A stretch of DNA of 64,000 nt from Candidatus Lustribacter sp. (GTDB taxonomy: Bacteria > Vulcanimicrobiota > Vulcanimicrobiia > Vulcanimicrobiales > Vulcanimicrobiaceae): positions 2,264,894 through 2,328,893 of the forward strand of contig OZ255842.1 in NCBI GenBank assembly GCA_965277805.1, in the 5' to 3' direction. The notes beneath the pieces are model-generated. The model saw nothing but the letters and a program-made list of their open reading frames with translations. It made no database searches and was not told where the DNA came from. This document shows, piece after piece, positions 96 through 18,998 of the stretch (the first letter of the stretch is position 1; each line of letters begins with the position of its first letter). A program made the translations under genes and the position numbers.

Positions 96-1031
96 ATGAG
101 CGCCCGCCGCATCAGCCTGCTCTACCGGGACGTCGATCGGCTCCCGTACCTTCACGCGCTCGCCCGCTGCGCGCGCGCGTACGATCTCGAAATCGAACTC
201 GTGCGCCATCGCCAAACCGGTCCCGAGGACTGGAGCGAAAAACTCAAGCGCGGCGAGGTCGATGCGATCTCCGAGAACTACTGGGCCCTGCAGCGCTTTC
301 GCGCGGCCGGGGAACCATTCGTCACGGTCGCATCCTCGGCGCACGAATGGCTCGAGTGGTTGCTGGTTCGTCCGGGGATCGCATCGCTGGAAGACCTGCG
401 CGGCAAGCGCATTGCCGTGCGCGACGTCGGGCCGCAACGCTCGTACCCCGGCGTCGTCCTGCGGCGGCTCGGCCTTGCCGGCGATGTCGAACAAGTTCTG
501 GTCACGGAAAAAGAAAACGGCCGTTGGGGCATGTGGAAAGCCGTCGTCGACGGGCGCTGCGATGCGTTCTTCATGCAGCCCGCTTACGGCGACGCCGCGC
601 TCGCGGCCGGCTTGCGCCCGATCGCCGTTCCGCCGTTCGCGTTCGAGGGCGGCTACATCATCCCGACGCTCACCGAAGCCTACGTTGCGGCGAATCCCGA
701 AACGGTGCGCGGCCTGGTGTTCGCCATGTTCGATGCGTGCCGCCGGGCGAAGCACGAATCCGGCTGGCTGCTGGAAGTCACGAAAGCCGACTCGCTCGGC
801 GATCTGGCCGAGCACTTCGACTTTCAGGACGATGCCGAGGTCGAGCGCTTCGTTGCGCACCAAATCGACGAGATCGCCGAGATTCCGATTCCGGCGCCCG
901 CCGGGTTGGTCAACGCGCTCGAGATCGCGAAGGCCCAATACGAGATTCCCGACGGCTTCAATCCGCTGGTGATGTGGGATCTCTCGTTCGTCCGCGAAGC
1001 CTTGGCTTCAACCGCCATTAAAGGACGCTGA
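96..1031 (+). CDS. Leaderless (cytoplasmic) periplasmic-binding-protein-fold protein, NMT1/SsuA-like, partner of HyuB-gamma
   Basis: 311 aa with AGGAG 10 nt upstream of the ATG and no signal peptide or hydrophobic N-terminus. It has the PBP type-2 pattern (..GKRIAVRDVGPQRS..). Its TGA at 1029-1031 lies one nt before the HyuB ATG at 1033. The paralogue at 11461-12402 is about two-thirds identical by eye. Confidence 0.75.
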   Translation: MSARRISLLYRDVDRLPYLHALARCARAYDLEIELVRHRQTGPEDWSEKLKRGEVDAISENYWALQRFRAAGEPFVTVASSAHEWLEWLLVRPGIASLEDLRGKRIAVRDVGPQRSYPGVVLRRLGLAGDVEQVLVTEKENGRWGMWKAVVDGRCDAFFMQPAYGDAALAAGLRPIAVPPFAFEGGYIIPTLTEAYVAANPETVRGLVFAMFDACRRAKHESGWLLEVTKADSLGDLAEHFDFQDDAEVERFVAHQIDEIAEIPIPAPAGLVNALEIAKAQYEIPDGFNPLVMWDLSFVREALASTAIKGR

Positions 1032-1032
1032 C

Positions 1033-3222
1033 ATGAGTACGGTAGCCGAACCCGCGCGCGTCACGCGCAAGGTCGACCCGGTGACCTTCGAGGTCATCCG
1101 GCACCGGCTCGTGGGAATTACCGAAGAACAAGCGGCGCGCTTGATGACGGTGTCGGGCTCGAAACACGTCACCGAAATGTCCGACTACAATGTGGGCCTC
1201 TATCTGCACGACGGCTCGGTCGCGGCGATGGGACGCACGATCCTCTACCACTCGTCGTCGATGGCCGCGCTCGTGCGCAGCGTGATCGCCGACTGCAGCG
1301 ACGAACCCGGCATCGCACCTGGCGACGTCTTCATCGTCAACGATCCCTGGAAGGGTTCGGTGCACGCGCCCGACATGGCGCTCATTACGCCGATTCACAT
1401 CGGCGAACAGCTGATCTTCTGGTCGGGCGCGATGATGCACATGTCCGACATCGGCGGCATGCATGAGGGCAGCGTGATGTTACCGGCGAGCGAAGCGTAT
1501 CAGGAAGGGCTCCTTCTTCCACCGCTCAAGCTCGTTTCCAAAGGCGTGATCCGCCAAGACGTGTGGCGCATGGTGCTCGGCAACTGCCGTCATGCCTCGA
1601 CGATGGGGCTCGATCTCAAGGGACTGATGGCAGCCAACAACGCGGCCGTGACCGGGCTGCAGCAACTCGGCGAGCGCTACGGCGTCGAAACGCTGCTAGA
1701 CGTCATGGCGTCGTTGATCGAACTCTCCGAAACGCGTCTGCGCGCGCGTTTGCGCGAACTTCCCGAAGCGACGGTCGAAGCGAGCGGGTACCTCGAATTC
1801 GATCCGGGGCTGGGCGACTGTCCGGTCGTGCATCTCGAACTCACCAAGCGCGGCGACGGCCTCACGCTCGATTTTTCCAAATCGTCGCCGCAAGTGCAGA
1901 GCTCGGTGAACTGCACGATCGGCGGCCTCATGGCGGGTGTCTCAGCCGGTCTCTTGCCGACGCTGGCCTACGACATTCCGTGGAACGAAGGCCTCTACCG
2001 TCCGCTCAACGTCATCTGCCCCGAAGGCAGGATCTGCAACGCTCGCCGGCCCGCAGCGCTCAGCGGCAACATCGCCGGTGCAGTGTGGGAAGCCGAAATG
2101 GCGACGACGGTTGCGCTCTCGCGCCTGGCGGCGTGTTCCGAAGACTACCGGCACGAGGCGCAAGCCTCATCGACGGCGCGTCCGGGTTCGCTCTTCTTCT
2201 TCGGCACCAATCAGCTCGGCGAACGTTTCGCCGGACGCACCTACGACGTGCTCGGTTCGGGCGGCGGCGCATACGCCGATCACGACGGGGTATCTTCGCA
2301 CGGCCACCACAGCATCGAGCGCCCGCTGATCAGCAACGTCGAATCACTTGAACTGGATCTGCCCATCCTTTATCTCCAGCGCCGCTGGGCGGCCGATAGC
2401 GGCGGCGCCGGAAAGCGGCGCGGCGGCTCGAGCATTCTCTCGATTTACAAACCGCATGGCGCGACGCCGACGTTCCAACGGCTCGGCTTCCGCTGGGAAG
2501 TGCCGGACGCGATGGGACTGTTCGGCGGCTATCCGGGTTCACAGATGGGCAGTGTGCTGATGCGTCGCACGAACGTCGCCCAAACGATGGCCGGCGGCCA
2601 CGTGCCGAACTTTGACGAGGTCGACGGAGAGCGATACGTCCTGCCGCCGCAGCGGCCGATGGCGATCGTGCTCGACACCGACGATGTCGTGCGCGCCGAT
2701 CCGCCGGGGCCGGCCGGTTGGGGCGATCCGCTCGAACGCAGCCTCGACGATCTCGACGTCGACGTCCAATTTCACGACGTCTCGCGCGCGGCCGCCGAAC
2801 GGCTCTACGGCTGCGTCTTCGATGCGACCGGAACGATCGATCGCACCGCCACCGCGCAGCGTCGCGCGGAGTTGCGTGATGAACGCAAGGCTTGGGTGAA
2901 GCGTAAAACGGGCAGTCGCGATGCGCACGGCAAGCTCGCGCGCCGCTTTCACCTAGGGGACGCGCTCGAGATCGCGCGCGACGAAGCGGGCGCCGACTGG
3001 ACCGTGTGCACGTGCGGTTTCGTGATCGCGCCGGCGGCAGAGAATTGGCGCGAGTATGCCGCCGCACGCGTCGCCCAACCCGATGACGTCGCCGTCAACA
3101 TGTTGGTGCACGCGCCGCTCGAACTGCGTCAGTATGCGTGCCCGGGTTGCGGCCGCCTCCATGCGGCCGATCTTTGCCGAGCCGGCGCCCCCGATCCGTA
3201 CGACATCCGGCTGGTGCTCTAG
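1033..3222 (+). CDS. Hydantoinase B/oxoprolinase (HyuB)-family large subunit with C-terminal acetone-carboxylase-gamma-like zinc-ribbon domain (paralogue 1)
   Basis: 729 aa. The HyuB-type core shows FEVIRHRL..SGSKHVTEMSDYNVGLY..VNDPW.GSVHAPD. The C-terminal tail (about 2992-3219) reads WTVCTCG..ENWREY..YACPGCGRLH..DPYDIRL, a CxC...CPxC pattern. Confidence 0.9.
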   Translation: MSTVAEPARVTRKVDPVTFEVIRHRLVGITEEQAARLMTVSGSKHVTEMSDYNVGLYLHDGSVAAMGRTILYHSSSMAALVRSVIADCSDEPGIAPGDVFIVNDPWKGSVHAPDMALITPIHIGEQLIFWSGAMMHMSDIGGMHEGSVMLPASEAYQEGLLLPPLKLVSKGVIRQDVWRMVLGNCRHASTMGLDLKGLMAANNAAVTGLQQLGERYGVETLLDVMASLIELSETRLRARLRELPEATVEASGYLEFDPGLGDCPVVHLELTKRGDGLTLDFSKSSPQVQSSVNCTIGGLMAGVSAGLLPTLAYDIPWNEGLYRPLNVICPEGRICNARRPAALSGNIAGAVWEAEMATTVALSRLAACSEDYRHEAQASSTARPGSLFFFGTNQLGERFAGRTYDVLGSGGGAYADHDGVSSHGHHSIERPLISNVESLELDLPILYLQRRWAADSGGAGKRRGGSSILSIYKPHGATPTFQRLGFRWEVPDAMGLFGGYPGSQMGSVLMRRTNVAQTMAGGHVPNFDEVDGERYVLPPQRPMAIVLDTDDVVRADPPGPAGWGDPLERSLDDLDVDVQFHDVSRAAAERLYGCVFDATGTIDRTATAQRRAELRDERKAWVKRKTGSRDAHGKLARRFHLGDALEIARDEAGADWTVCTCGFVIAPAAENWREYAAARVAQPDDVAVNMLVHAPLELRQYACPGCGRLHAADLCRAGAPDPYDIRLVL

Positions 3223-3932: not shown

Positions 3933-3936
3933 CCCC

Positions 3937-5937: not shown

Positions 5938-5952
5938 GTGAGGAAGAGCCCG

Positions 5953-7844: not shown

Positions 7845-7920
7845 TGTTGAGACCGACGTTCGCGGTGCTGGGGTCAGATTACTTGACTGGCCGGCGCCAA
7901 TGGCCTTAAAATTAAATTCC

Positions 7921-9114: not shown

Positions 9115-9117
9115 CGA

Positions 9118-9251
9118 CGCGGAGTGCAATTTTTTCTTGTCATGCCGAGCGGAGCGCCAAAGGGCGCGTAGTCGATGTACGCGCGAAAATTGCGCCTGGA
9201 GCCAGGGCAATGCCACGACGTTGTCCTTCAACCGACCACGCGCACTCCGCG
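9118..9251. repeat. Intergenic element bounded by 10-bp inverted repeats between convergent genes
   Basis: CGCGGAGTGC (9118-9127) is the reverse complement of GCACTCCGCG (9242-9251). Internal short GC hairpins occur, e.g. GCGCC-AAAG-GGCGC around 9154-9167. There is no convincing ORF. Confidence 0.3.
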
Positions 9252-9259
9252 CGCTTCCC

Positions 9260-11464
9260 TCAGGATCCCGCGGGGGCGAGCGCTGCAAGGTCTAGGCGGA
9301 TGTCATGAGGATCGCCTTCGTCTTTTCGGCAGATGTCTACGGAGTGCAGTAGACCGCAGGCCGGGCAGGCGTAGCGACGGGCCTCGAGTTTTGCATGCAC
9401 GATGAGGCCCATACCGAGTTCTTCGGCGTTTGCCGTCGCGTACGCGGCAGACGCACGCCAGTTTTCGCTTGCAGGCGCAAAGGCATGACCGCAGCGGCAG
9501 ACGGTCCAGAACGCGCCCGCATCGTCGCGGCGCACTTCAAGCCGGTCACCGATCCGGCAAGACCGTACGAGCGCACCTTTCGGTTCGGCCGTTCGCGGCA
9601 TGCGCACCGGCCAGGCGGTGCGTTCCGCGCGTAGCGCCGCGCGGCGTTGATCGCTTGCCGCAACGTCGATGTGCCCGTCCGCATCGAAGATGCAGCCGAA
9701 GAAACGCGATGCGGCTTCGCGCGTGATTGCGGCCTCGTCGAGATCGTGTGCGAGATCTTCGAAAGTGCGTTCGAGCGGATCGCCCCAGCCCGCACCGGCG
9801 GGCGGATCGGCACGGACGACGTCGCCCGCGCGGAGCACGAGCGTTTGCGGCGGCGGTTGCGGCGAAACATACGTTTCGCCGTCGATCTCATCGAAGAGCG
9901 GGATGTGTCCGCCCGCAAACGTAGCTTCGACGTCCGTATTCCGCAGCAGCACGCTGCCCATTTCCGATCCCGGGTAGCCGCCGAACACGCCGGTTGAATC
10001 GGGCACGTGCCAGGTGCGGCCGATGCGCTGGAAGGTCGGTTCCGAGCCGTGCGGCGTGTAGACGCCGACCACGCTCGAACCGCCGCGCCGCCGCCCGGCG
10101 CCGCCGCCGTCGGAGGCCCAACCGCGCCGCAGGTAAAGGATCGGCAGGTCTAGCTCGAGCGCTTCCACGTTGCTGATCTGCGCGCGCACGATGCCGTGAT
10201 GGCCGTGCGCGGACACGCCGTCGTGATCGGAATACGCGCCCGCGCCCGACGCCAACACGTCGAATGTGCGGCCGGCAAAACGTTCGCCGTTTTGATTCGT
10301 GCCGTAAAAGAACAGCGACCCGGGACGCCCGCACGATGCCGCCGCGGCTTCCGGCAAGTAGAGATCGGAGCAAGCCGCGAGGCGCGAGATCGCGAGCGTC
10401 GTCGCGAGGTCGACTTCCCAGACCGCACCGCTGATGTTCCCGCTGACCGCCGCCGGGCGCCGCGCGTTGCAGATGCGCCCTTCGGGGCACGTTACCTCCA
10501 GCACGCGATAGATGCCCGCGTTCCACGGAATGTCGTAAGCCAGCGTGGGCAGCAGCGCGCCGGAAATTCCCGCCATCAAACCGCCGAAGGTGCAGTTCGT
10601 CGAATTGGCAACTTGCGGCGAAGATTTCGAGTAATCGAGCAGCAGCCGGTCACCCGTTTTGGTCATTTCAACGTGCACGACCGGCACGTCTCCGAACGAC
10701 GGATCGTATTCGAGAAAACCCGCCGCCGTAACGGTCGCATCGGGCAGCTCGCGCAGACGCGCACGCAAACGTATTTCGGACGCGTCGCACAGCGCCGCCA
10801 TCACGCGGCGCAGCATCGGGACCCCATAGCGCCGCGCCAGTTGGCTCAACCCGTCGACTGCAGCCATGTTGGCAGCGAGCAGGCCTTTGAGATCGAGGCT
10901 CATCGTCGCCGGATGGCGGCAGTTACCGAGAATGAAGCGCCACAAATCGGTGCGCAGCGCTCCCCCTTCGACGAGCTTGAGCGGCGGCAGCAGCAGCCCT
11001 TCCTGAAACGCTTCGGTCGCCGGCAGCATGACGCTGCCTTCGTACAAGCCGCCGATGTCCGACATGTGCATCATCGCGCCGGCCCAGAAAAGCAGCTCGC
11101 CATCGATAAACACCGGCGTCATCAGTGCCATGTCCGGTGCGTGCACGGAGCCCGCCCAGGGATCGTTGACGACAAACGTATCGCCGGGCCCGATGTCCGG
11201 CGCGCAGTCGGCGATGACGCTCCGGCACAGTGCCGCCATGGTTGCGGCGTGGTGCAACACGGTCCGTCCCATCGCGGCGACCGAACCGTCGGCAAGGTAG
11301 AGACCGACGTTGTAATCCGACATCTCGGTGACGTGCTTCGAGCCGGAGATCGTCGTCAGGCGCGCCGCCGACTCATCCGTGATACCGAGAAGGCGGTGCC
11401 GGATCACCTCGAACGTGACCGCATCGGTCGCATCCGGGAGCGGCGGTTGTTGGAGCGTACTCAT
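9260..11464 (-). CDS. HyuB-family large subunit with C-terminal acetone-carboxylase-gamma-like zinc ribbon (paralogue 2)
   Basis: I chose the start MSTLQQ.. at 11464, which forms an ATGA overlap with the upstream stop (11461-11464). The core is about 70% identical by eye to 1033-3222. The tail (9263-9514) reads WTVCRCGH..ENWR..YACPACGLLH..DPHDIRL. Confidence 0.9.
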   Translation of the reverse strand: MSTLQQPPLPDATDAVTFEVIRHRLLGITDESAARLTTISGSKHVTEMSDYNVGLYLADGSVAAMGRTVLHHAATMAALCRSVIADCAPDIGPGDTFVVNDPWAGSVHAPDMALMTPVFIDGELLFWAGAMMHMSDIGGLYEGSVMLPATEAFQEGLLLPPLKLVEGGALRTDLWRFILGNCRHPATMSLDLKGLLAANMAAVDGLSQLARRYGVPMLRRVMAALCDASEIRLRARLRELPDATVTAAGFLEYDPSFGDVPVVHVEMTKTGDRLLLDYSKSSPQVANSTNCTFGGLMAGISGALLPTLAYDIPWNAGIYRVLEVTCPEGRICNARRPAAVSGNISGAVWEVDLATTLAISRLAACSDLYLPEAAAASCGRPGSLFFYGTNQNGERFAGRTFDVLASGAGAYSDHDGVSAHGHHGIVRAQISNVEALELDLPILYLRRGWASDGGGAGRRRGGSSVVGVYTPHGSEPTFQRIGRTWHVPDSTGVFGGYPGSEMGSVLLRNTDVEATFAGGHIPLFDEIDGETYVSPQPPPQTLVLRAGDVVRADPPAGAGWGDPLERTFEDLAHDLDEAAITREAASRFFGCIFDADGHIDVAASDQRRAALRAERTAWPVRMPRTAEPKGALVRSCRIGDRLEVRRDDAGAFWTVCRCGHAFAPASENWRASAAYATANAEELGMGLIVHAKLEARRYACPACGLLHSVDICRKDEGDPHDIRLDLAALAPAGS

Positions 11465-12402
11465 GCGGTCAGCGTCTCGCGCGCGAACGACAGATCCCAC
11501 ATCTCGAGCGGATTGAAGCCGTCGAGGCCGGCGTACTGCGCGCGCGCGATCTCGAGCGCGTTCGCCAAGCCCGCGATCGTCGGGAGTGGCGAGCCGCCAA
11601 CCTCAGCGACGAGATGCCCCACGATGCGCGCGATATCATCATCGCCGTTCATGGTGAAGTGTTCGCGCAAATCTGCGAGACACTCCGCGGTCACGAGGTC
11701 GAGCGTCCATCCCGGTTCGCTGCTTACGCGATGGTTGGCATCGTGCATCGCGTGCGCGAGCGCGCGAATCGCTTGCGGTGCTCGTGTTACCAAGGCTTCT
11801 GTCGTGGTCGGAATGACGTGGCCCCCTTCGAATGGGAACGGCGGCGTGGGAATCTGGTGCAGTCCGGCCGCGAGCGCGGCATCGGCGTAGGCCGGCGACA
11901 TAAAACAGGCATCACAGCGGCCATCGGCTACGGCTTTCCAAACGCCCCAACGACCGAGTTCCTTCTCCTCGACGACGACCTGTTCGATCTCGTGGAGCAG
12001 ACCGAGATGGCCGAAGGCGACCGTGGGCAGCGAACGTTGCGGGCCGTGATCGCGCACGGCGATGCGCTTTCCGCGCAGATCGTTCATCGACTCAATCGAT
12101 CCGCGCACGAGCAGCCATTCGGTCCACACGTGCGCAGCCGAAGCGACCGTGACAAACGGTGCGCCGGCTGCCCGCAGGCGTTGCAAGCCCCAGTAGTTCT
12201 CGGCCAGCACATCGACCTCACCGCGGCGGAGCTTTTCACTCCAATCCTCGCTGCCGGCTTGACGATGACGCACGAGTTCGACCTCGAGGCCGTACGGCGC
12301 GGCGCAACGCCGAAGCGCACACAGATAGGGCAACCGGTCGACATCGCGATAGAGCAGCGTCAGCCGCAACTCAGCGGGCGCGGATGACGACATTCCCACC
12401 AT
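11461..12402 (-). CDS. Leaderless PBP-fold (NMT1/SsuA-like) protein, partner of HyuB-gamma (paralogue of 96-1031)
   Basis: 313 aa with no signal peptide. Its sequence LLYRDVDRLPYL..GKRIAVRDHGPQRS..GRCDA.FM.PAY.DAALAAGL matches 96-1031. Its stop overlaps the HyuB-gamma start. An alternative Met lies at 12393. Confidence 0.75.
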   Translation of the reverse strand: MVGMSSSAPAELRLTLLYRDVDRLPYLCALRRCAAPYGLEVELVRHRQAGSEDWSEKLRRGEVDVLAENYWGLQRLRAAGAPFVTVASAAHVWTEWLLVRGSIESMNDLRGKRIAVRDHGPQRSLPTVAFGHLGLLHEIEQVVVEEKELGRWGVWKAVADGRCDACFMSPAYADAALAAGLHQIPTPPFPFEGGHVIPTTTEALVTRAPQAIRALAHAMHDANHRVSSEPGWTLDLVTAECLADLREHFTMNGDDDIARIVGHLVAEVGGSPLPTIAGLANALEIARAQYAGLDGFNPLEMWDLSFARETLTA

Positions 12403-14482
12403 GGTCTTTGACCGCGCGCTGGTTCGGCCCCAGCACGACGGTCGTCCCGAAGAATTCGAGAATCGCCGGCCCGTCGATGTCCGTATCCGCGGGGACGCGT
12501 TCGCCGCGATAGATCGCGGTCGGAACCATCTCTTTCTCGAACATCACGTTGCGATCGCCGAGCTTGGCACCGGCCAGCGATTGTTCGGCCGCTCCGTTCT
12601 CGGACGGCGACACGCTCGGTGAGGGCACGCGCCCTTCCACGCGGAACGTGTTGATCTCGATTCCGGCCTCGGCGAGACTCGTTCCCGGACCGTAGATCCG
12701 CTCGTAGCGCAGGTAGAAGTCGCGTATCAGCGCGTCGAGCGCCACGCGATCGAGCGGGTCGTTCGCGACCGGAACTGCCAACTCGTGCACTTGCTTGCGG
12801 AAACGGAAGTACAGGGTTCGCTTGAGCTGCAGCTGCGGATGCTCGTGCATGGCGGCGCGGCAGCGTTCTTCCAATTGCGCGAAGGTCCCGTTGATGCGCT
12901 CGAGGTCAAAGTGCTCGGCGGGATTCGGCGTTCCGGGCGGCGTGTGCTGAGGATCGCTGCGCTGAAAGCTGCGAAAACGATCGGACGATACCGCGCCGTA
13001 GCCGGAGTGTACGGTCGCCGTGTGCGGTACGACCACGGTGGAAATACCGGCCTCTTGCGCGATCGCGTAGCCGTGCGTCGGTCCAGCGCCGCCGTAGGCG
13101 AACATCACGAAGTCGCGCGGATCGTACCCCTGCTGAACGGTCAGCGTACGCACGAGATCCGCCATTTGGTTTTCCGCGACCGAACGGATTCCCGATGCGG
13201 CTTCCGTTACCGATAGGCCGAGCGGCTCGGCAATGTGCAGCCGGATCGCTTCTTCGGCCAGCTCGCGATAGAGCGGGATGGCCCCGCCGAGGAAATACTT
13301 CGGATCGATGATGCCGAGCACGACATCGGCGTCGGTAACCGTCGGCCGCGTTCCACCTGCACCGTAGCAGGCCGGCCCGGGCACGGCGCCCGCGCTTTCG
13401 GGACCGACCAGCAGCACGCCGTGCTCGATCGACGCGATGCTCCCGCCACCGGCGCCGATTGCGGTCACGCGAATCCGGGGCGAAGCGATATGGTAACTTC
13501 CGGTGATACTCTGCGTTGCGACCAGCGGTTCGCCGTCGACGATCAGACCGGCATCGAAGCTCGTGCCGCCCATGTCGCCGGTGATGACGTTGGGAAAACC
13601 GAGGCGGCGCGCGAGCGCGGCCGACGCGAGGACGCCGCCGGCCGGACCCGAGACCATGAGCTCGACCGCGCGACCGCCGGCCTCGCGCGCTTCGACCACG
13701 CCGCCGGCCGAATCCATTACGGTGAAGTCGCCGGTGAAACCGTTCTGCCGCAGACGATCCTCGAGCACTTGCACGTAACGGCGAATGATCGGTCCGAGGT
13801 ATGAATTGACCACGGTCGTCGCGGTGCGCTCATATTCGCCGATGATCGGTGCGATCTCGCAAGAGAGGGTGATGAAAACGTCCGGGCACTCTTCGCGAAT
13901 GATGCGCGCCGCTTCGATCTCGTGATCCGCACGAACGAACGACCAGAGAAAGCAGATCGCGACGGCATTCACGCCCGCCTCGCGAATCCGCTGCGCGGCC
14001 GCTTGCACTTGATCGAGCTGCAACGGAACGATCTCGGCGCCGGCGGAGTCGAGCCGCTCGTCGATTTCGATGATGTCTGCCCGCGGCACGAGCGGCACCG
14101 GATTGCGGCGTTCGCTGTAGTGGCTCGAGCGCTCGCCGATGCCCGTCCACGACCCCATCGCGCGCTGAATGAACATGGTATCGGCGAAGCCGCGCGTCGT
14201 AAGCAGTACGGTACGTTCGCCCTTGCGCTCGATGTAGGCGTTCGTTGCGGCGGTCGTCCCGTGCGCGAAGTAACTCACGCTGCGCGTGAACTGCTCGAGC
14301 GTCAAATCGTGATCGGCGGCCGCGAGCTTGAACCCTTCGAGCACCGCTTGACTGCGGTCGCTCGGCGTCGTCGGCACCTTGAATTGACGCAATGCGCCGG
14401 CTTCGTCGATCACCACCATGTCGGTAAACGTCCCGCCGATATCGGTCCCAACCAGGAACCGCCGCCCGTCAGTCGTTGGCAT
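12371..14482 (-). CDS. Hydantoinase A/oxoprolinase (HyuA)-family ATPase subunit (paralogue 1)
   Basis: The six-frame ORF runs to 15067, but its first 195 codons are Arg/Ser-rich shadow sequence. The real start is MPTTDGRRFLVGTDIGGTFTDMVV at 14482. It has the ASKHA-type motifs GTDIGGTFTD and ITGDMGGTSFD. Confidence 0.9.
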   Translation of the reverse strand: MPTTDGRRFLVGTDIGGTFTDMVVIDEAGALRQFKVPTTPSDRSQAVLEGFKLAAADHDLTLEQFTRSVSYFAHGTTAATNAYIERKGERTVLLTTRGFADTMFIQRAMGSWTGIGERSSHYSERRNPVPLVPRADIIEIDERLDSAGAEIVPLQLDQVQAAAQRIREAGVNAVAICFLWSFVRADHEIEAARIIREECPDVFITLSCEIAPIIGEYERTATTVVNSYLGPIIRRYVQVLEDRLRQNGFTGDFTVMDSAGGVVEAREAGGRAVELMVSGPAGGVLASAALARRLGFPNVITGDMGGTSFDAGLIVDGEPLVATQSITGSYHIASPRIRVTAIGAGGGSIASIEHGVLLVGPESAGAVPGPACYGAGGTRPTVTDADVVLGIIDPKYFLGGAIPLYRELAEEAIRLHIAEPLGLSVTEAASGIRSVAENQMADLVRTLTVQQGYDPRDFVMFAYGGAGPTHGYAIAQEAGISTVVVPHTATVHSGYGAVSSDRFRSFQRSDPQHTPPGTPNPAEHFDLERINGTFAQLEERCRAAMHEHPQLQLKRTLYFRFRKQVHELAVPVANDPLDRVALDALIRDFYLRYERIYGPGTSLAEAGIEINTFRVEGRVPSPSVSPSENGAAEQSLAGAKLGDRNVMFEKEMVPTAIYRGERVPADTDIDGPAILEFFGTTVVLGPNQRAVKDHGGNVVIRAR

Positions 14483-15275: not shown

Positions 15276-17462
15276 CTAAGCCAAGACGAGCCGGATGTCG
15301 TGTAAATCCGGACTTTCCTTGCGGGACACGTCGACCGCATGCAGACGTCCGCAGGCGGGGCACGCGTAGGCACGTCCCTCCATCGCCTCGTTGATCTTCA
15401 AGCCCATGCCGAGCTGATCGGCCGGAATGATCTTCCGTCCTGCGAACTCGCGCCAATTGTCCCGTGCGTGTGCGAGCGTATGCCCGCAGTTGCAGCGCGT
15501 CCAATAGTCGCCGGCCGCATCGCGGTCGACCTGCATGCGATCCCCGAGCGGCGCCACGCGTACGAGGTCGCCGGCCGGCTTCGCATCGAGCGTCTTCTTC
15601 CGCGGCCAAGCCTTGCGCTCGGCATGGATCTTCGCGCGCGATTCATCCGAACGCGCTGTATCGAGCGTTCCGTCGGCGCTCAGCACGCAGCCGTACAGCC
15701 GTTCCGCAGCCGCCGCTGAAATCGCGCCCGCGAGCAGGTCACGCTGCACTTCGGCGACAGGCCGGTCGAGCGGATCGCCCCAACCCGCACCGGTCGGCGG
15801 ATTCGCGCGGACGACGTCGGTGGCATCCAGCAGCATATTCATCGAGCGATCTGCGGGATCAATCCACTCGCCCTTCAGATCGCCGAAATCCGGAACCTGA
15901 CCCGATTTGAGCCGCTCGAGCACGTCGGTGTGCCGAATGAGATCGTGCCCGGTTTCCGAGCCCGGATAGCCGCCGAAGAGACCCAGCGAGTCGGGCGTCT
16001 TCCACTCCTGATTGATGTACTGAAACGTCGCTTGGGCTTTGTGCGGTGCGTAGACGCCAAGCAAGCTCAGGCCGCCGCGATGGCTGCCGGCGCCGCCGCT
16101 GTCCGTCGCCCAGCCGCGCCGCAGATACAAGATCGGGTAGTCGAGTTCGAGCACCTCGGCGTTGCTGATCAGCGTGCGCTCCATGCCGTGGTGACCTTGC
16201 GTCGAGACACCGTCGTGATCGGCATACGCACCGCCGCCCGACGCGATGACGTCGTACGTGCGCCCGCGGTAGCGTTCGCCGTGCTGGTTCATTCCGAAGA
16301 AGGCCAGCGTGCGCGGGCGTCCGCACGGCGCGGCCTGCGCCTCGCCCAGTAACGTGTCCGAGCACGCGACGATCCGCGATACGGCGATGAGCGTCGCGAC
16401 TTCTGATTCCCACACGGCGCCCGCGATGTTGCCGCTGACGGCGGCCGGACGCTTCGCGTTGCAAATACGGCCTTCGGGGCAAATGATCTCGAGCGGACGG
16501 AACAAGCCTTCGTTCCATGGGATGCCGAAGGCGAGCGTCGGCAAGAGCGCCGCCGCAACGCCGGCCTTGAGACCGCCCAGCGTACAGTTGATCGCGCTGC
16601 CGACTTGGGCCGTCGACCCGGAGAAATCCAAGTGCAAACGGTCGCCCTCTTTGCGCAGCGCGACGTGAACCTCGGGAACCTCCCCGCGCTGGGGATCGAA
16701 TTCCATATATCCGGAACCGGTCACGAGACCGTCGGGTAGTTCCATGATCCGGCGCCGAAAGCGCGCTTCGGATGACGAGATCAACCGCGCCATCGCGATC
16801 TGCAGCAGATCGGCGCCGTAACGTCGGACCAGGTTCTGAAGCCCGTCGCGCGCGGCGAGGTTGGAGGCGATCAAGCCGCGCAAATCGAGGCTCATCGTCG
16901 CCGGGTGGCGGCTGTTGTTGGTGATGAAATGCAGCAGATCGTTGCGAACGCGGCCGCCTTCCACGATCTTGATGGGCGGGATCTGCATGCCTTCCTGATA
17001 GCACTCGACGGCCGCTTGCACGAGGCTGCCCTCCGCCATTCCGCCGATGTCCGACATGTGCATGATCGCGCCGGCCCACAACACCAGCCGGCCGTCGATG
17101 TGCAAGGGCGCGAGCATGGCGACGTCGGGTGCGTGCAGCGAGCCCTTCCAAGGGTCGTTGACGATGAACATGTCGCCTTCGTTGATCCCGGGATCGACCG
17201 CGCAGTCTGCGATCACCGCGCGCACCATCTCAGCCATACAGGCGGAGTGGTGCAGCGAGGTGTGCCCCATAGCCGCGACCGATCCGTCGGCGAGATACAA
17301 ACCGACGTTGAAGTCGGACATTTCGGTCACTTGCTTCGAGCCCGAGATCGTCATCAAACGCGCGGCTTGTTCGCTCGTGATGCCGTGCAGCCGATGCCGG
17401 ATGACCTCGAAGGCAACCGGGTCGATGACCTCGTCTTCGCGGACCTTCTCAAATGTCGTCAC
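15276..17462 (-). CDS. HyuB-family large subunit with C-terminal acetone-carboxylase-gamma-like zinc ribbon (paralogue 3)
   Basis: The GTG start at 17462 has AGGAA upstream; the product is 728 aa. The core shows FEVIRHRL..SGSKQVTEMSDFNVGLY..VNDPWKGSLHAPD. The tail (15279-15509) reads WTRCNCGH..DNWREF..YACPACGRLH..DLHDIRL. Confidence 0.9.
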   Translation of the reverse strand: MTTFEKVREDEVIDPVAFEVIRHRLHGITSEQAARLMTISGSKQVTEMSDFNVGLYLADGSVAAMGHTSLHHSACMAEMVRAVIADCAVDPGINEGDMFIVNDPWKGSLHAPDVAMLAPLHIDGRLVLWAGAIMHMSDIGGMAEGSLVQAAVECYQEGMQIPPIKIVEGGRVRNDLLHFITNNSRHPATMSLDLRGLIASNLAARDGLQNLVRRYGADLLQIAMARLISSSEARFRRRIMELPDGLVTGSGYMEFDPQRGEVPEVHVALRKEGDRLHLDFSGSTAQVGSAINCTLGGLKAGVAAALLPTLAFGIPWNEGLFRPLEIICPEGRICNAKRPAAVSGNIAGAVWESEVATLIAVSRIVACSDTLLGEAQAAPCGRPRTLAFFGMNQHGERYRGRTYDVIASGGGAYADHDGVSTQGHHGMERTLISNAEVLELDYPILYLRRGWATDSGGAGSHRGGLSLLGVYAPHKAQATFQYINQEWKTPDSLGLFGGYPGSETGHDLIRHTDVLERLKSGQVPDFGDLKGEWIDPADRSMNMLLDATDVVRANPPTGAGWGDPLDRPVAEVQRDLLAGAISAAAAERLYGCVLSADGTLDTARSDESRAKIHAERKAWPRKKTLDAKPAGDLVRVAPLGDRMQVDRDAAGDYWTRCNCGHTLAHARDNWREFAGRKIIPADQLGMGLKINEAMEGRAYACPACGRLHAVDVSRKESPDLHDIRLVLA

Positions 17463-17476: not shown

Positions 17477-18505
17477 CTAGTGCGAGAACAGCGACGGGGT
17501 CTTGATCGCTTTGTCCAGATATGAGAAATCGATCACGCTGTGATAGTCCCAGGCTGGATTGGAGATGATTTGCTCGTCCTTGAGCACTTGAATGGCATTG
17601 GCAAACGCTTTCGGATCGAGCCTGGCATCGACCGGTGGCGTATTGCCGCGGAACGGTCCGGCGGCATAATACTCATACGCATCGGTGGCTGCGGCGACGC
17701 TGAGCGGACCGCCCTTCGCCAGCAGGTCGATCGCTTGCGCACGATTCTTTGGATCGAGGATGTAGTCACAACCCTTGGCCAGCGCGCCCATGAAGCGCAC
17801 GGCGGTATCAGGATTCGCCTTGAGCCAATTGCGGGTCGACATCACCAAGCCGTTGTTATACAGCTTCTGGCTCGCGCCGAAATGGGTCAGGGTGTGCATG
17901 CCGTTGAAATCGCCGCGATCGACGGGGTCGTTGATGTACGCGGCTGCAGCTTGGCCGCTCACGACCGCCGCGAGCCGGCCGGTGCTGGCACCGCCGATGT
18001 AGAGCGGCTTCCATTTGTCCTTGCCGACGTACCCGTTGATGAGCGCCGTACCGATCGCCTCGTTCGACGTGTTGTGCGCGGGCAGTGCGATCGTCTTCCC
18101 CACCAGCTGAGCGGGCGAGGTTATCGACGGCGGCGAGATTAGCGAAACCGGCGAACCTTCGCTGCTGCCCAACACGACGAGCTGGTCGCTCTGACCGTTC
18201 GCCGCCGGAATGACCGAGGCCGCGCCGGCCGTGACGATGTCGGCTTGCCCGCTGGTCAGTGCGCTGACGATCGCCGGATCGCCGTAAAGCACGACCGAGT
18301 TCCCGATGCGGATCCCGGCCTTCGCGAAATAGTTCCCTTGCTGCGCGCCGTAGATGCACCACGAGCCCAGTGTCGAGCCGTAGGTCGCGATGTTGACGGT
18401 CTTCAAATCGGGAGCTGCGTTCGTCTGCGCGACCGTCGCGGAATCCATGGAACCGAGTAACGTCAACGACACGGCGCCGCACAGCAACATCCGGGCAGTA
18501 ATCAT
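17477..18505 (-). CDS. Secreted NMT1/SsuA-like substrate-binding protein (first gene of the HyuB/HyuA operon)
   Basis: 342 aa with N-terminal signal MITARMLLCGAVSLTLLGSMDSATVAQ and AAGGGG upstream. It has the PBP pattern ..LVGKTIALPAHNTSNEA... Its C-terminus matches the partial gene at 1-81. Confidence 0.8.
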   Translation of the reverse strand: MITARMLLCGAVSLTLLGSMDSATVAQTNAAPDLKTVNIATYGSTLGSWCIYGAQQGNYFAKAGIRIGNSVVLYGDPAIVSALTSGQADIVTAGAASVIPAANGQSDQLVVLGSSEGSPVSLISPPSITSPAQLVGKTIALPAHNTSNEAIGTALINGYVGKDKWKPLYIGGASTGRLAAVVSGQAAAAYINDPVDRGDFNGMHTLTHFGASQKLYNNGLVMSTRNWLKANPDTAVRFMGALAKGCDYILDPKNRAQAIDLLAKGGPLSVAAATDAYEYYAAGPFRGNTPPVDARLDPKAFANAIQVLKDEQIISNPAWDYHSVIDFSYLDKAIKTPSLFSH

Positions 18506-18559: not shown

Positions 18560-18593
18560 ATTCCTCCGAATTACCGTGACTGGAGAACGCGCG

Positions 18594-18998
18594 ATGTCAA
18601 CTACCAGCGCAAAAACGCTGATTCCCGGACCCGAGGGCAAAACGATCCGCGGCGGCAACTGCTACGGCGTCAAGGCCGGCGGCTTTCTCTTTCTGTCGGC
18701 CGTGCGCGGCACGTTGCCGAACGACGGCGGCGTGCCGTCCGATCTCGAGGAACAAGCGCGTCAGCTCTTCCGCAACATCCAAGACACGCTCAAGCAATCC
18801 GGTGCGACGATGGATCAGGTCGTCAAGATGGCTGTCTACATGATCGATCTTGAAAACGACCGTCCGGTCTTCAACAAGGCCTGGAAAGAGTTTTTCGGCG
18901 ATCAGCCGCCGGCGCGCTTCGCGGTCCAGGTGACGGGCATCGGCAATCCCGGCGACGGCAGCCGTTTCCTCTGTGACGTTACGGCGCTGGCTCCGTAG
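18594..18998 (+). CDS. RidA/YjgF/L-PSP-family enamine/imine deaminase-like protein
   Basis: The ATG at 18594 has GGAG 8 nt upstream. Family-typical sequence includes ..GGFLFLSAVRG.., QARQLFRNIQDTLKQSGATMDQVVKMAVYM and ..PARFAVQV... Confidence 0.85.
   Translation: MSTTSAKTLIPGPEGKTIRGGNCYGVKAGGFLFLSAVRGTLPNDGGVPSDLEEQARQLFRNIQDTLKQSGATMDQVVKMAVYMIDLENDRPVFNKAWKEFFGDQPPARFAVQVTGIGNPGDGSRFLCDVTALAP

What the first reader, a model, noticed from the sequence alone, without database searches (positions are those of the whole stretch)
1033..3222. HyuB-like subunit fused to an acetone-carboxylase-gamma-like Cys4 zinc ribbon, in all three paralogues
All three HyuB-family ORFs (1033-3222 +, 9260-11464 -, 15276-17462 -) are 728-734 aa long. 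That is clearly longer than the roughly 520-580 aa I recall for plain HyuB/OplB proteins. Their C-termini share WT(V/R)C.CG(H/F) .. (E/D)NWR .. YACP.CG.LH .. D(P/L)(Y/H)DIRL, at coordinates 2992-3219, 9263-9514 and 15279-15509. This CxC...CPxC arrangement and its flanking residues match my recollection of the separate ~19 kDa gamma subunit of acetone carboxylase (..WTVRCECGH..DNWK..FCPECGTLH..), which is a structural Zn site. In the characterised acetone and acetophenone carboxylases, gamma is a separate polypeptide. Here there is no stand-alone gamma ORF and the module is fused in every copy. This argues for carboxylase-type enzymes rather than simple hydantoinase or 5-oxoprolinase, with a subunit architecture I do not know as characterised.
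Basis: partly seen in the sequence, partly recalled or inferred. Interest (0 to 1): 0.75.

Follow-up and report, generated by a model that had tools for sequence, protein, structure and literature searches.

The report
HyuB enzyme subunit with fused zinc-ribbon
Three paralogous genes each encode the metal-binding subunit of an ATP-dependent hydantoinase/ketone-carboxylase-type enzyme joined to the small zinc-ribbon "gamma" subunit so far described only in acetone and acetophenone carboxylases; this layout is real, widespread and uncharacterised, and it sits next to aromatic ring-cleavage genes, but it does not show that the enzymes are carboxylases.

Summary
ORFs 1033-3222(+), 9260-11464(-) and 15276-17462(-) encode 729/734/728-aa proteins. 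Each has a full Hydantoinase_B domain plus a C-terminal Acetone_carb_G domain above Pfam's gathering score. The four Cys are invariant in 35 homologues. A profile of the tails hits acetone carboxylase gamma (E=2.7e-12), and Foldseek agrees. The window has no stand-alone gamma ORF.

The fusion is not rare. It occurs in at least 48 GTDB species (Actinomycetota, Chloroflexota, Eremiobacterota) and on an alphaproteobacterial megaplasmid. At least 78 of the 150 best gamma-like cluster representatives are fused to a HyuB core. Unfused A-B-gamma operons and a 1430-aa A-B-gamma triple fusion also exist. I found no characterised member.

In an NJ tree the HyuB cores form a third deep lineage. It is not nested in (Acx,Apc) or (caprolactamase,N-methylhydantoinase), and it is slightly more similar to the hydrolases (30% vs 23-24% identity).

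Within 10 kb, HyuA is present in 46/48 loci and a LigB-type extradiol dioxygenase in 43/48. Dienelactone hydrolase, alpha/beta-hydrolases and IclR are frequent. No beta-ketoacid-CoA genes are conserved.

The "carboxylase rather than hydrolase" reading is therefore only partly supported. My estimate: hydrolytic outcome about 0.4, carboxylation about 0.35. This is a new variant of a known kind, of moderate interest.

The parts
1033..3222 (+). HyuB-gamma copy 1 (729 aa). HyuB core is residues 1-~612, linker ~613-635, gamma-like Zn ribbon residues ~636-729 (nt ~2938-3219). Cys4 codons are at 3007, 3013, 3139 and 3148. Metal-site residues are D51, H111, D114 and H136.
9260..11464 (-). HyuB-gamma copy 2 (734 aa, 67% identical to copy 1). 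The gamma-like domain lies at nt ~9278-9550. Its ATG at 11464 overlaps the stop of the upstream NMT1-like gene (ATGA). The ORF can also be read from the GTG at 11500.
15276..17462 (-). HyuB-gamma copy 3 (728 aa, 58% identical to copy 1). The gamma-like domain lies at nt ~15291-15551.
12371..14482 (-). HyuA (ATP-binding alpha-type subunit) of cluster 2. The probable start is the ATG at 14482 (703 aa); the mechanical ORF runs on to 15067.
   Evidence: Pfam Hydant_A_N/Hydantoinase_A/Hydant_A_C. 81% identical to the other HyuA from 14461 onward. Start codon read.
20105..22210 (-). HyuA of cluster 3 (701 aa).
   Evidence: Pfam. NCBIfam CapA 546 bits, ApcC 393 bits, both below cut-off. PDB: CapA 393, Apc-alpha 390, NMHase 375, Acx-beta 307 bits.
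96..1031 (+). Cytoplasmic NMT1/THI5-like (class II periplasmic-binding-protein fold) protein, 311 aa, with no signal peptide. It ends 1 nt before HyuB-gamma copy 1. It is a possible accessory partner.
   Evidence: Present in 14/48 related loci.
11461..12402 (-). Second cytoplasmic NMT1/THI5-like paralogue (313 aa, 64% identical). It lies between HyuA-2 and HyuB-gamma-2 and overlaps both neighbours.
22207..23286 (-). LigB-family (class III extradiol dioxygenase-like) protein, immediately upstream of HyuA-3 in the same orientation.
   Evidence: Pfam LigB, NCBIfam class III extradiol families. A LigB-family gene lies within 10 kb in 43/48 related loci.
19011..20105 (-). Cupin-family protein (possible ring-cleavage dioxygenase) between HyuA-3 and HyuB-gamma-3.
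   Evidence: Cupin Pfam hits. There is only a faint match to 5-aminosalicylate 1,2-dioxygenase. It is not conserved elsewhere (1/48).
18576..18998 (+). RidA/YjgF-family protein (enamine/imine deaminase family) inside cluster 3.
   Evidence: RidA co-occurs with the cytoplasmic NMT1-like gene in 10 related loci.
17477..18505 (-). Secreted NMT1-family solute-binding protein with a signal peptide, just upstream of HyuB-gamma copy 3. It looks like an ordinary transporter component, not the cytoplasmic type.
23362..24159 (-). IclR-family regulator flanking cluster 3.
   Evidence: IclR is present in 33/48 related loci.

Best explanation
[quoted passage not shown] This family is a third, uncharacterised deep lineage. 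Its gamma Zn ribbon is a separate polypeptide in acetone and acetophenone carboxylases but is covalently attached here to the C-terminus of the HyuB-type subunit.

How it most likely works:
1. A HyuA-type alpha subunit binds ATP and phosphorylates the enol or iminol tautomer of a carbonyl substrate. This is inferred by homology. HyuA is adjacent in clusters 2 and 3.
2. The activated intermediate passes to the HyuB core. There a divalent metal held by D51/H111/D114/H136 catalyses the second half-reaction. The ligands are shown to be conserved; the chemistry is inferred.
3. The Cys4 gamma module binds structural Zn and clamps the beta core. The fusion simply makes that 1:1 association obligatory. 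It arose by read-through of overlapping hyuB and gamma genes, as still seen unfused in L055.

The enzyme belongs to a conserved catabolic module built around a LigB/LigA extradiol ring-cleavage dioxygenase. The module also carries dienelactone hydrolase, alpha/beta-hydrolases, a PhtC-like decarboxylase and an IclR regulator. The substrate is therefore an aromatic compound, or a ring-cleavage product, bearing an activatable carbonyl.

For the outcome of step 2, I lean slightly to ATP-driven hydrolytic opening of a stable cyclic amide-type bond (about 0.4) over carboxylation (about 0.35). The substrate is unknown.
For: Architecture and homology:
- Pfam shows both domains.
- The tail matches AcxC by PDB profile at E=2.7e-12.
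- AF2 gives pTM 0.88 with tail pLDDT >90, and Foldseek matches the Acx gamma chains.
- The Cys4 and the D/H/D/H ligands are invariant in 35 sequences. They align residue for residue with CapB Asp41/His99/Asp102/His124, Apc-beta Asp65/His123/Asp126/His148 and Acx Glu89/His150/Asp153/His175.

Partner subunit and origin of the fusion:
- HyuA lies within 10 kb in 46/48 loci.
- An unfused hyuA-hyuB-gamma operon has an ATGA overlap.
- A triple fusion exists.

Third lineage:
- In the NJ tree the fused clade has 100% support, (Acx,Apc) 98% and (Cap,NMH) 94.5%. The fused clade joins at the central node.

Catabolic module:
- LigB-family 43/48, LigA 31/48, DLH 32/48, aldolase-II/PhtC-like 31/48, IclR 33/48.
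- The same module occurs on a Niveispirillum megaplasmid.

Lean towards hydrolysis:
- Identity is higher to CapB/NMHase (30/29%) than to Apc/Acx (23/24%).
- The core has the length of a hydrolase-type (Hyd) beta subunit.
- There is a single alpha type and no alpha'.
- No conserved CoA ligase or thiolase is present.
- RidA appears in one context type.
- The literature holds that gamma is remote from the active sites.
Against: - Every enzyme of this family characterised so far that has a gamma subunit is a carboxylase, and every characterised hydrolase lacks it.
- The gene order A-B-gamma is colinear with acxABC.
- The most parsimonious reading of the unrooted tree puts a single gamma gain or loss on the branch separating Cap/NMH from the rest. 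That would group this lineage with the carboxylases.
- In two of the three window copies a cytoplasmic member of the nitrate/sulfonate/bicarbonate-binding fold family is translationally coupled to the gene.
- No substrate, metal content or activity has been measured.
- The tree uses only four reference sequences and NJ distances.
Confidence: 0.45

Rival explanations
1. One reading: these are biotin-independent, ATP-dependent carboxylases of the Acx/Apc kind. HyuA would phosphorylate both an enolisable (or phenolic) substrate and bicarbonate, and the C-C bond would form at the HyuB metal site. The product would be a carboxylated aromatic that feeds the LigAB-type (or, in the window, cupin-type) ring-cleavage dioxygenase. 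The cytoplasmic NMT1-like protein would act as an accessory subunit, analogous in role to Apc-epsilon, or as a bicarbonate or substrate chaperone.
For: - Gamma is present in both characterised carboxylase types and in none of the characterised hydrolases.
- The tail is clearly Acx-gamma-like.
- The A-B-gamma order is colinear with acxABC.
- The unrooted tree is compatible with a gamma-bearing clade of Acx + Apc + this lineage.
- A cytoplasmic PBP-fold protein of the bicarbonate/nitrate/sulfonate-binder superfamily is translationally coupled in two copies and linked in 14/48 loci.
- Ring-cleavage dioxygenases of types that often act on hydroxybenzoates are adjacent.
- A distant fused homologue on Rhodococcus opacus pCP105 sits next to two acyl-CoA ligases, as Apc sits next to benzoylacetate-CoA ligase.
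Against: - The lineage is not nested with Acx/Apc, and its identity to them (23-24%) is lower than to the hydrolases.
- NCBIfam ApcD scores 161-171 bits against a cut-off of 1500, and there is no Acx model hit.
- There is no alpha' paralogue. The two HyuA genes are 81% identical and each sits in its own cluster.
- The first metal ligand is Asp as in CapB and Apc, not Glu as in Acx.
- The conserved module has no CoA ligase, CoA transferase or thiolase.
- A PhtC-like decarboxylase is conserved in the module.
- The NMT1-like protein shows only a generic PBP fold and no specific similarity to bicarbonate binders. It is absent from 34/48 loci.
- The role of gamma in carboxylation is undemonstrated.
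Confidence: 0.35
2. The enzyme carries out some other ATP-dependent transformation of an enolisable intermediate. Examples are phosphorylation-driven elimination or aromatisation, isomerisation, or metabolite repair of a spontaneously cyclised ring-cleavage product. The gamma module would serve as a docking or regulatory element for another protein, such as LigAB or the NMT1-like protein, rather than as a mere clamp.
For: - The linkage to LigB is very tight (43/48) without any conserved hydroxylase to make a catechol. This leaves the order of reactions open.
- Several hydrolases already exist in the module.
- Mus et al. note similarity of gamma to Yippee-like Zn domains and call its role unclear.
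Against: No precedent exists in the family. All characterised members either hydrolyse or carboxylate. There is no direct evidence for protein docking.
Confidence: 0.15
3. The long ORFs are artefacts: an assembly or frameshift read-through joining hyuB to a separate gamma gene, or a chance Cys-rich tail.
For: Unfused hyuB-gamma pairs with overlapping stop and start codons exist elsewhere, so a single indel could mimic a fusion.
Against: - Three diverged paralogues (58-67% identity) in one window all have the fusion.
- So do homologues in 48 species-level genomes, including complete genomes of cultured strains.
- At least 78 of the 150 best representative clusters are fused to a HyuB core.
- The linker and tail are conserved.
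- The AF2 tail has pLDDT >90.
Confidence: 0.01

Closest known systems
Acetone carboxylase AcxABC (Xanthobacter autotrophicus; PDB 5M45/5SVB/5SVC)
   Same: - A HyuA-like ATP-binding subunit, a HyuB-like metal subunit and a Cys4-Zn gamma module.
- The gene order A-B-gamma is the same.
- The tail profile hits AcxC at E=2.7e-12 over AcxC residues 52-145.
- The His/Asp/His metal ligands align.
   Different: - Gamma is a separate 168-aa chain in Acx.
- The window proteins lack its N-terminal ~50 residues and the C-terminal segment beyond ~residue 145. Mus et al. say that a helix at the gamma C-terminus contacts the HyuA-like subunit.
- The HyuB core is only 24% identical and ~150 aa shorter.
- The first metal ligand is Asp, not Glu89.
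- The clade is not nested with Acx.
- The genomic context is aromatic ring cleavage, not acetone or acetoacetate metabolism.
Acetophenone carboxylase Apc (Aromatoleum aromaticum; PDB 5L9W)
   Same: - A beta subunit with the Asp/His/Asp/His site.
- A gamma subunit with four Cys. The tail profile hits 5l9w_C at E=0.036.
- An aromatic substrate context.
- An extra ~32-34 kDa dissociable subunit (epsilon) is needed in Apc. Here a ~34 kDa cytoplasmic protein is coupled in two copies.
   Different: - Apc needs alpha' and epsilon and has the gene order apcABCDE.
- No alpha' exists here.
- The NMT1-like protein gave no hit to any acetophenone-carboxylase model in NCBIfam at E<=0.001.
- Identity to Apc-beta is 23%, and NCBIfam ApcD scores 161-171 bits against a cut-off of 1500.
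- Gamma is fused here and separate in Apc.
Caprolactamase CapAB (Pseudomonas jessenii; PDB 6YRA) and N-methylhydantoinase (PDB 7HK5/9H03)
   Same: - These are the highest sequence similarities of both the HyuB core (178 and 162 bits; 30 and 29% identity) and HyuA (393 and 375 bits).
- The core ends at the same point as CapB.
- The metal ligands are the same.
- There is a single alpha type.
   Different: - These hydrolases have no gamma module.
- NCBIfam CapB scores 206-212 bits against a cut-off of 1000.
- The fused clade is not nested with them in the tree.
Other arrangements of the same three modules in public data (uncharacterised)
   Same: - An unfused HyuA(705)-HyuB(650)-gamma(101) operon (L055).
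- A single-chain HyuA-HyuB-gamma protein of 1430 aa (P0208/L057).
- A fused 769-aa homologue on Rhodococcus opacus pCP105.
   Different: The gene neighbourhoods differ. L055 has MarR and SDR genes. L057 has aldehyde dehydrogenase, SDR and a PBP-like gene. pCP105 has acyl-CoA ligases and SDRs. No LigB-family match was found in these loci. They probably act on different substrates.

Membership tests
Hydantoinase B/oxoprolinase superfamily (PF02538) | Full-length match to the Hydantoinase_B profile | tested here: met
   E=5e-115 to 2e-119, covering profile positions 1-519 of 519 in all three copies.
Hydantoinase B/oxoprolinase superfamily (PF02538) | Conserved Asp/His/Asp/His metal site | tested here: met
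   D51, H111, D114 and H136 are invariant in 35 sequences. They align to CapB D41/H99/D102/H124 and Apc-beta D65/H123/D126/H148.
Hydantoinase B/oxoprolinase superfamily (PF02538) | A partner HyuA-type ATP-binding subunit encoded nearby | tested here: met
   HyuA lies at 12371-14482 and 20105-22210, and within 10 kb in 46/48 related loci. Copy 1 has no adjacent HyuA in the window.
Acetone carboxylase gamma subunit family (PF08882) | Profile match above the gathering score | tested here: met
   25.1, 23.3 and 26.8 bits against 21. The family profile hits AcxC at E=2.7e-12.
Acetone carboxylase gamma subunit family (PF08882) | Four conserved Zn-binding cysteines (CxC...CxxC) | tested here: met
   C659/C661/C703/C706 are invariant. 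They align with the CxC and CxxC motifs of AcxC, which Mus et al. number Cys74/76/124/127. Zn binding itself was not measured.
Acetone carboxylase gamma subunit family (PF08882) | A separate ~15-20 kDa polypeptide | tested here: not met
   The module is fused to HyuB in all three copies, and the window has no stand-alone ORF. Only the core of AcxC (residues ~52-145) is represented.
Acetone carboxylase (AcxABC) | Orthology of the HyuB-like subunit to AcxB (alpha, ~776 aa, Glu89 ligand) | tested here: not met
   98 bits and 24% identity, with Asp at the Glu89 position. The clade is not grouped with Acx in the tree.
Acetone carboxylase (AcxABC) | ATP converted to AMP + 2 Pi with bicarbonate incorporation, dependent on Mn or Fe | not testable with these tools
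   This needs enzymology.
Acetophenone carboxylase (Apc) | Five-subunit composition with alpha' and epsilon, in the apcABCDE order | tested here: not met
   There is only one HyuA type per cluster, and the two are 81% identical. No ApcA-like second paralogue is present. NCBIfam ApcD reaches 161-171 bits against a cut-off of 1500.
Caprolactamase / Hyd-type lactamases | NCBIfam equivalog score, and a two-subunit alpha-beta composition without gamma | tested here: not met
   CapB scores 206-212 bits against a cut-off of 1000, and CapA 546 against 1000. A gamma module is present.
   The fused clade joins at the central node between (Cap,NMH) and (Acx,Apc). The tree is unrooted, uses four references and is NJ only.

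The most novel reading that the evidence does not exclude
The HyuA/HyuB-gamma pair, with the cytoplasmic PBP-fold protein in some lineages, is a third type of biotin-independent, ATP-dependent carboxylase. It would be used by aerobic soil bacteria (Actinomycetota, Chloroflexota, Eremiobacterota, some Alphaproteobacteria). It would carboxylate an enolisable or phenolic aromatic compound so that a LigAB-type dioxygenase can cleave it. This would be a new entry route into aromatic ring cleavage and a new CO2-fixing reaction.
Probability: 0.3. Interest if true: 0.8.

Novelty: new variant of a known kind. Interest (0 to 1): 0.5.

Why it matters
The structural literature treats the gamma Zn-ribbon subunit as a hallmark that separates acetone and acetophenone carboxylases from the two-subunit hydantoinase/lactamase enzymes (PMC5214803). 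This lineage breaks that simple picture. It is a large, phylogenetically distinct group with hydrolase-like cores, and it carries gamma as a covalent domain.

Because beta and gamma are tethered 1:1, the family is a convenient system for asking what gamma does. Tail deletion and Cys-to-Ser variants would be direct tests.

The near-universal linkage to a LigB/LigA extradiol dioxygenase, lactone/ester hydrolases and an IclR regulator holds across phyla. It defines an uncharacterised aromatic catabolic module with an ATP-consuming step. If that step is a carboxylation, it would be a new biotin-independent CO2-fixing reaction in aerobic aromatic degradation. If it is a hydrolysis, it would show that gamma is not carboxylase-specific.

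Either result would improve annotation of many genes now labelled only "hydantoinase B/oxoprolinase family protein".

Tried and rejected
1. Five full-text literature searches looked for a characterised fused member or a HyuAB+LigAB pathway. They returned only the Acx, Apc and caprolactamase papers and unrelated work. The skatole-cluster SktIJ of Rhodococcus ruber is described there only as caprolactamase-like, and I did not analyse its sequence.

2. NCBIfam equivalogs gave no assignment. All scores were far below the cut-offs.

3. I tried to decide carboxylase versus hydrolase by similarity and phylogeny. HyuA is equidistant from CapA, Apc-alpha and NMHase. The HyuB tree places the clade at the central node. 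Neither result is decisive.

4. The metal ligands do not discriminate. The Asp/His/Asp/His site is shared by CapB and Apc-beta.

5. I considered the cytoplasmic NMT1-like protein as an Apc-epsilon or bicarbonate-binder analogue. It gave no hit to any acetophenone-carboxylase model in NCBIfam. Profile and fold searches give only a generic class II PBP fold (SsuA, Thi5, ThiY, DszB, PqqT), with no specific match.

6. I considered specific substrates: benzoxazolinone or aminophenol, oxindole or quinolinone lactams, acetovanillone-type aryl methyl ketones, phenol-type carboxylation, and ellagic acid or coumarin lactones. None could be supported. Plain lactones seem unlikely, because they lack an enolisable or iminol tautomer for HyuA-type phosphorylation (my own chemical reasoning).

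7. The look-up of encoding contigs found no record for the window's own protein. The genome is known only as a 5.53-Mb contig whose nearest relative is a Candidatus Lustribacter MAG at 84% identity.

8. My simple ORF caller produced antisense shadow ORFs in the high-GC actinobacterial loci (clusters c7, c9, c12, c21). I therefore replaced the cluster counts with tblastn counts.


Full report
**1. Observation**

They are 1033-3222(+), 729 aa; 9260-11464(-), 734 aa; and 15276-17462(-), 728 aa. Copies 2 and 3 are 67% and 58% identical to copy 1.

Pfam gives a full-length Hydantoinase_B match (E about 1e-115, residues ~14-565) in each. It also gives an Acetone_carb_G (PF08882) match at residues ~638-729 in each, at 25.1, 23.3 and 26.8 bits against a gathering score of 21.

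- One tail alone hits the acetone carboxylase gamma subunit 5m45_C (residues 55-135) at E=5e-5.
- A profile of 19 tails hits it at E=2.7e-12 (AcxC residues 52-145). The same profile hits the acetophenone carboxylase gamma chain 5l9w_C at E=0.036.
- An AlphaFold2 model of copy 1 has mean pLDDT 83 and pTM 0.88, with pLDDT above 90 over residues ~620-729.
- Foldseek matches the core to NMHase, Acx-alpha, Apc-beta and CapB (E 1e-34 to 1e-37). It matches the tail to the Acx gamma chains (E about 3e-5, probability 1.0).
- In an alignment of 35 homologues down to 48% identity, C659, C661, C703 and C706 are invariant. So are W672, R673, P704, G707 and D724.
- A six-frame HMM scan of the whole window finds only these three tails. 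The next best hit scores 9.7 bits, so there is no stand-alone gamma gene.

**2. Anatomy**

The HyuB core aligns end to end with caprolactamase CapB (6yra_B residues 3-579) up to query residue 612. The extra length is a ~25-residue basic linker (consensus ...RRAxLRxERRxWPxxR...) plus a ~95-residue beta-rich Zn-ribbon core.

Compared with AcxC (168 aa), the N-terminal ~50 residues and the C-terminal segment beyond ~residue 145 are missing. Mus et al. describe a helix at the gamma C-terminus that contacts the HyuA-like subunit.

The metal-site residues D51/H111/D114/H136 are invariant. They align with CapB D41/H99/D102/H124, Apc-beta D65/H123/D126/H148 and Acx E89/H150/D153/H175.

**3. Surroundings in the window**

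- Cluster 2 reads HyuA (12371-14482; the ATG at 14482 was read, and the mechanical ORF runs to 15067), then a 313-aa NMT1/THI5-like protein (11461-12402), then HyuB-gamma (9260-11464). The genes overlap one another (ATGA at 11461-11464).
- Cluster 3 reads LigB-like (22207-23286), HyuA (20105-22210), a cupin (19011-20105), RidA on the opposite strand (18576-18998), a secreted NMT1-family binding protein (17477-18505), then HyuB-gamma (15276-17462). An IclR regulator lies at 23362-24159.
- Copy 1 is preceded, 1 nt upstream, by the 311-aa NMT1-like paralogue (96-1031). It has no adjacent HyuA. The fragment at the window edge is not HyuA, and the orthologous Lustribacter locus has binding-protein genes there.
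- The two NMT1-like proteins next to copies 1 and 2 lack signal peptides. They belong to a very small family: only 46 homologues at E<=1e-5 among 5.8 billion clusters. At least nine have the same longest-contig length as a HyuB-gamma hit, which suggests they share a contig. Their model (pLDDT 94.5) shows a generic class II periplasmic-binding-protein fold, with SsuA, Thi5, ThiY, DszB and PqqT as neighbours.
- The rest of the window is an aromatic catabolic island. It holds two LigXa-like Rieske oxygenases, a VOC-type dioxygenase, an aldehyde dehydrogenase, two Amidohydro_2 proteins, a class II aldolase-like protein, a 2OG oxygenase and many solute-binding proteins.

**4. Distribution of the fusion**

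All 120 best hits to copy 1 are ~720-750 aa. They come from Eremiobacterota (Ca. Lustribacter, 84% identity), Chloroflexota MAGs and many Actinomycetota. Where named, they are called only "hydantoinase B/oxoprolinase family protein" or "N-methylhydantoinase B". Some lack a precomputed PF08882 hit but still carry the tail with all four Cys.

- A scan of one genome per GTDB species returned 48 loci.
- tblastn on plasmids adds a 41%-identical copy on a Niveispirillum cyanobacteriorum (Alphaproteobacteria) megaplasmid. It also adds a distant (30%) 769-aa fused homologue on Rhodococcus opacus pCP105.
- An exhaustive HMM search with the tail profile finds 614 representative clusters (50% identity) at E<=1e-3 and 101 at E<=1e-10.
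- Of the best 150, 12 are full-length fusions and 66 are contig-end fragments that still carry the HyuB C-terminus plus tail. The other 72 are short proteins without a detectable core. Some of these begin inside the linker and so are fragments. Others are genuine ~100-aa stand-alone gammas.
- One of the stand-alone gammas lies in an unfused HyuA(705)-HyuB(650)-gamma(101) operon, where gamma overlaps the hyuB stop by ATGA.
- P0208 is a single 1430-aa HyuA-HyuB-gamma chain.

The fusion is thus one common state in a spectrum. It is easily explained by loss of the stop codon between overlapping hyuB and gamma genes, in the same A-B-gamma order as acxABC.

**5. Relationship to characterised enzymes**

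| Comparison | Result |
|---|---|
| HyuB core vs PDB (bits) | CapB 178, NMHase 162, Apc-beta 148, Acx-alpha 98 |
| HyuA vs PDB (bits) | CapA 393, Apc-alpha 390, NMHase 375, Acx-beta 307 |
| NCBIfam, HyuB-gamma | CapB 206-212 (cut-off 1000); ApcD 161-171 (cut-off 1500) |
| NCBIfam, HyuA | CapA 546 (cut-off 1000) |

I transcribed the aligned parts of four PDB reference sequences and checked every block length against the printed coordinates. I then built an NJ tree of HyuB cores (608 columns, 200 bootstraps).

- The fused clade is monophyletic (100%).
- (Acx,Apc) has 98% support and (Cap,NMH) 94.5%.
- The fused clade joins at the central node.
- Identities of copy 1 are 30% (Cap), 29% (NMH), 23% (Apc) and 24% (Acx).

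It is a third deep lineage, and the unrooted topology cannot say which side it belongs to. A single gain or loss of gamma on the Cap/NMH branch is the most parsimonious reading, but that rests on only four references.

**6. Conserved gene neighbourhood**

I counted neighbours by tblastn within ±10 kb of HyuB-gamma in the 48 species-level loci:

| Neighbour | Loci (of 48) |
|---|---|
| HyuA | 46 |
| LigB-family dioxygenase | 43 (four of the five exceptions are truncated loci) |
| IclR | 33 |
| Dienelactone hydrolase | 32 |
| LigA | 31 |
| Class II aldolase-like protein | 31 |
| Alpha/beta-hydrolase | 28 |
| Cytoplasmic NMT1-like protein | 14 |
| RidA | 11 (10 together with the NMT1-like gene) |

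- The best NCBIfam match of the class II aldolase-like protein is 3,4-dihydroxyphthalate decarboxylase PhtC, at 101 bits against a cut-off of 200.
- Typical Actinomycetota order: HyuA, HyuB-gamma, LigB, LigA, regulator, ABC transporter, IclR, DLH, two alpha/beta-hydrolases, class II aldolase-like, FAA hydrolase, acetaldehyde dehydrogenase.
- The Niveispirillum megaplasmid has IclR, HyuA, HyuB-gamma, DLH, two alpha/beta-hydrolases, LigB, LigA.
- The Nonomuraea LigB is nearest to protocatechuate 4,5-dioxygenase beta (96 bits) and to MhpB-type 2,3-dihydroxyphenylpropionate dioxygenase (91 bits).
- No hydroxylase, CoA ligase, CoA transferase or thiolase is conserved in the module.
- By contrast, the distant pCP105 homologue sits beside two acyl-CoA ligases and SDRs. 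That context does resemble Apc plus benzoylacetate-CoA ligase.

**7. Literature**

- Weidenweber et al. [quoted passage not shown] They place a probable Zn site at four Cys of Apc-gamma. They describe gamma as enveloping beta and being far from the proposed active sites.
- Mus et al. 2017 (PMC5543143) give the Acx-gamma Zn ligands as Cys74/76/124/127. They state that the role of gamma is unclear and that it contacts mostly the HyuB-like subunit.
- Marjanovic et al. 2021 (PMC8453981) show that the gamma-less caprolactamase needs bicarbonate for activity. They discuss carboxyphosphate as a possible intermediate.

None of the five full-text searches found a paper on a fused HyuB-gamma or on a HyuAB-LigAB module.

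**8. Interpretation**

Shown:
- The domain architecture.
- Homology of the tail to the Acx/Apc gamma subunit.
- Conservation of the Cys4 and of the catalytic metal ligands.
- Wide distribution of the fusion.
- Separate phylogenetic position of the lineage.
- Tight linkage to HyuA and to a LigB-type dioxygenase module.

Inferred by homology:
- HyuA phosphorylates an enol or iminol tautomer with ATP.
- The intermediate is processed at the HyuB metal site.
- The tail binds structural Zn and clamps the beta core.

Unresolved: whether the second half-reaction is hydrolysis or carboxylation, and what the substrate is.

For carboxylation:
- Gamma has so far been found only in carboxylases.
- The gene order is colinear with acxABC.
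- The parsimony reading of the tree groups this lineage with the gamma-bearing carboxylases.
- A PBP-fold partner of the bicarbonate/nitrate/sulfonate-binder superfamily is coupled in some lineages.

For hydrolysis:
- The cores are closer to the hydrolases and have a hydrolase-type (Hyd) length.
- There is a single alpha type.
- No beta-keto-acid handling genes are present.
- A decarboxylase-like gene and (in part) RidA are in the module.
- Gamma is remote from catalysis in the known structures.

I put hydrolytic opening of a stable cyclic amide-type bond at about 0.4, carboxylation at about 0.35, another ATP-dependent reaction at about 0.15, and an artefact at 0.01 or less.

**9. Verdict**

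Its functional inference is plausible but not established. Its impression that the architecture is unusual needs tempering: the architecture is uncharacterised but common.

This is a new variant (beta-gamma fusion, third lineage) of a known enzyme kind. It is of moderate interest for two reasons. It contradicts the textbook split between gamma-bearing carboxylases and gamma-less hydrolases. It also defines a conserved, experimentally tractable aromatic catabolic module that contains an ATP-consuming step.

Noticed in passing
window 96-1031 (+) and 11461-12402 (-): These are two cytoplasmic (no signal peptide) NMT1/THI5-like PBP-fold proteins, translationally coupled to HyuB-gamma copies 1 and 2. 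The family is tiny (46 homologues at E<=1e-5) and found almost only in metagenomes. It appears linked to HyuB-gamma: at least nine homologues have the same longest-contig length as a HyuB-gamma hit. The fold is generic (SsuA/Thi5/ThiY/DszB-like). The function is unknown; it may be an accessory subunit, an enzyme or a substrate chaperone.
   Followed up: partly
L044, L006/L018 and most Actinomycetota loci; L058 (Niveispirillum megaplasmid, 5773-14701): A conserved cross-phylum module contains IclR, HyuA, HyuB-gamma, dienelactone hydrolase, two alpha/beta-hydrolases, LigB and LigA, often with a PhtC-like class II aldolase-family decarboxylase and lower meta-cleavage genes. No hydroxylase is conserved, so how the dioxygenase substrate arises is unexplained.
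   Followed up: partly
L057 8001-12293 (P0208, GCA_030416875.1): A single 1430-aa chain carries Hydant_A_N, Hydantoinase_A, Hydant_A_C, Hydantoinase_B and Acetone_carb_G. It is a complete alpha-beta-gamma triple fusion. It lies next to an IclR gene, an aldehyde dehydrogenase, an SDR and a PBP-like (Phosphonate-bd) gene.
   Followed up: partly
L055 3933-8306: This is an unfused operon of HyuA (705 aa), HyuB (650 aa) and gamma (101 aa). The gamma start overlaps the hyuB stop by 4 nt. It looks like the likely precursor state of the fusion. MarR genes and an SDR flank it.
   Followed up: no
L059 6800-13612 (Rhodococcus opacus pCP105): A distant (30% identity) 769-aa HyuB carries a gamma-like tail (21.5 bits). 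It is preceded by HyuA and followed by an SDR and an acyl-CoA ligase. A second adenylate-forming enzyme and an FAD oxidoreductase lie upstream. This context resembles a ketone carboxylase pathway more than the window's does.
   Followed up: no
window 3850-4935 (+) and 4945-5937 (+): Another NMT1-like ORF has no obvious signal peptide; its real start is probably the internal MSTLELS.... It is followed by a PEP-mutase/isocitrate-lyase-family protein whose best match is methylisocitrate lyase at 198 bits, below the cut-off. The Lustribacter orthologous locus places the PEP_mutase gene directly after HyuB-gamma.
   Followed up: no
window-wide (e.g. 5938-6912, 17477-18505, 24282-25217, 27113-28057, 31143-32111, 33562-34884, 52489-53511): There is an unusual number of NMT1-family solute-binding protein paralogues: at least nine, most with signal peptides. 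Three Peripla_BP_6 binding proteins sit in the same 64 kb. This suggests uptake of many related small aromatic or heterocyclic substrates.
   Followed up: no
window 7747-9114 (+) and 36653-37927 (-): Two Rieske oxygenases have a LigXa-like C-terminal domain, the family of the lignin-biphenyl O-demethylase oxygenase. Also present are Amidohydro_2 proteins (25214-26176, 60909-62066), a VOC-type dioxygenase (41182-42087) and an aldehyde dehydrogenase (39786-41207). The region looks like a lignin-derived aromatic catabolic island in an Eremiobacterota genome.
   Followed up: no
window 12371-15067 (-): The mechanical ORF for HyuA-2 is 898 aa. Homology to HyuA-3 begins only at 14461, and an in-frame ATG at 14482 gives a 703-aa protein. 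The 195-codon N-terminal extension is Arg/Ser-rich and is probably not translated.
   Followed up: yes
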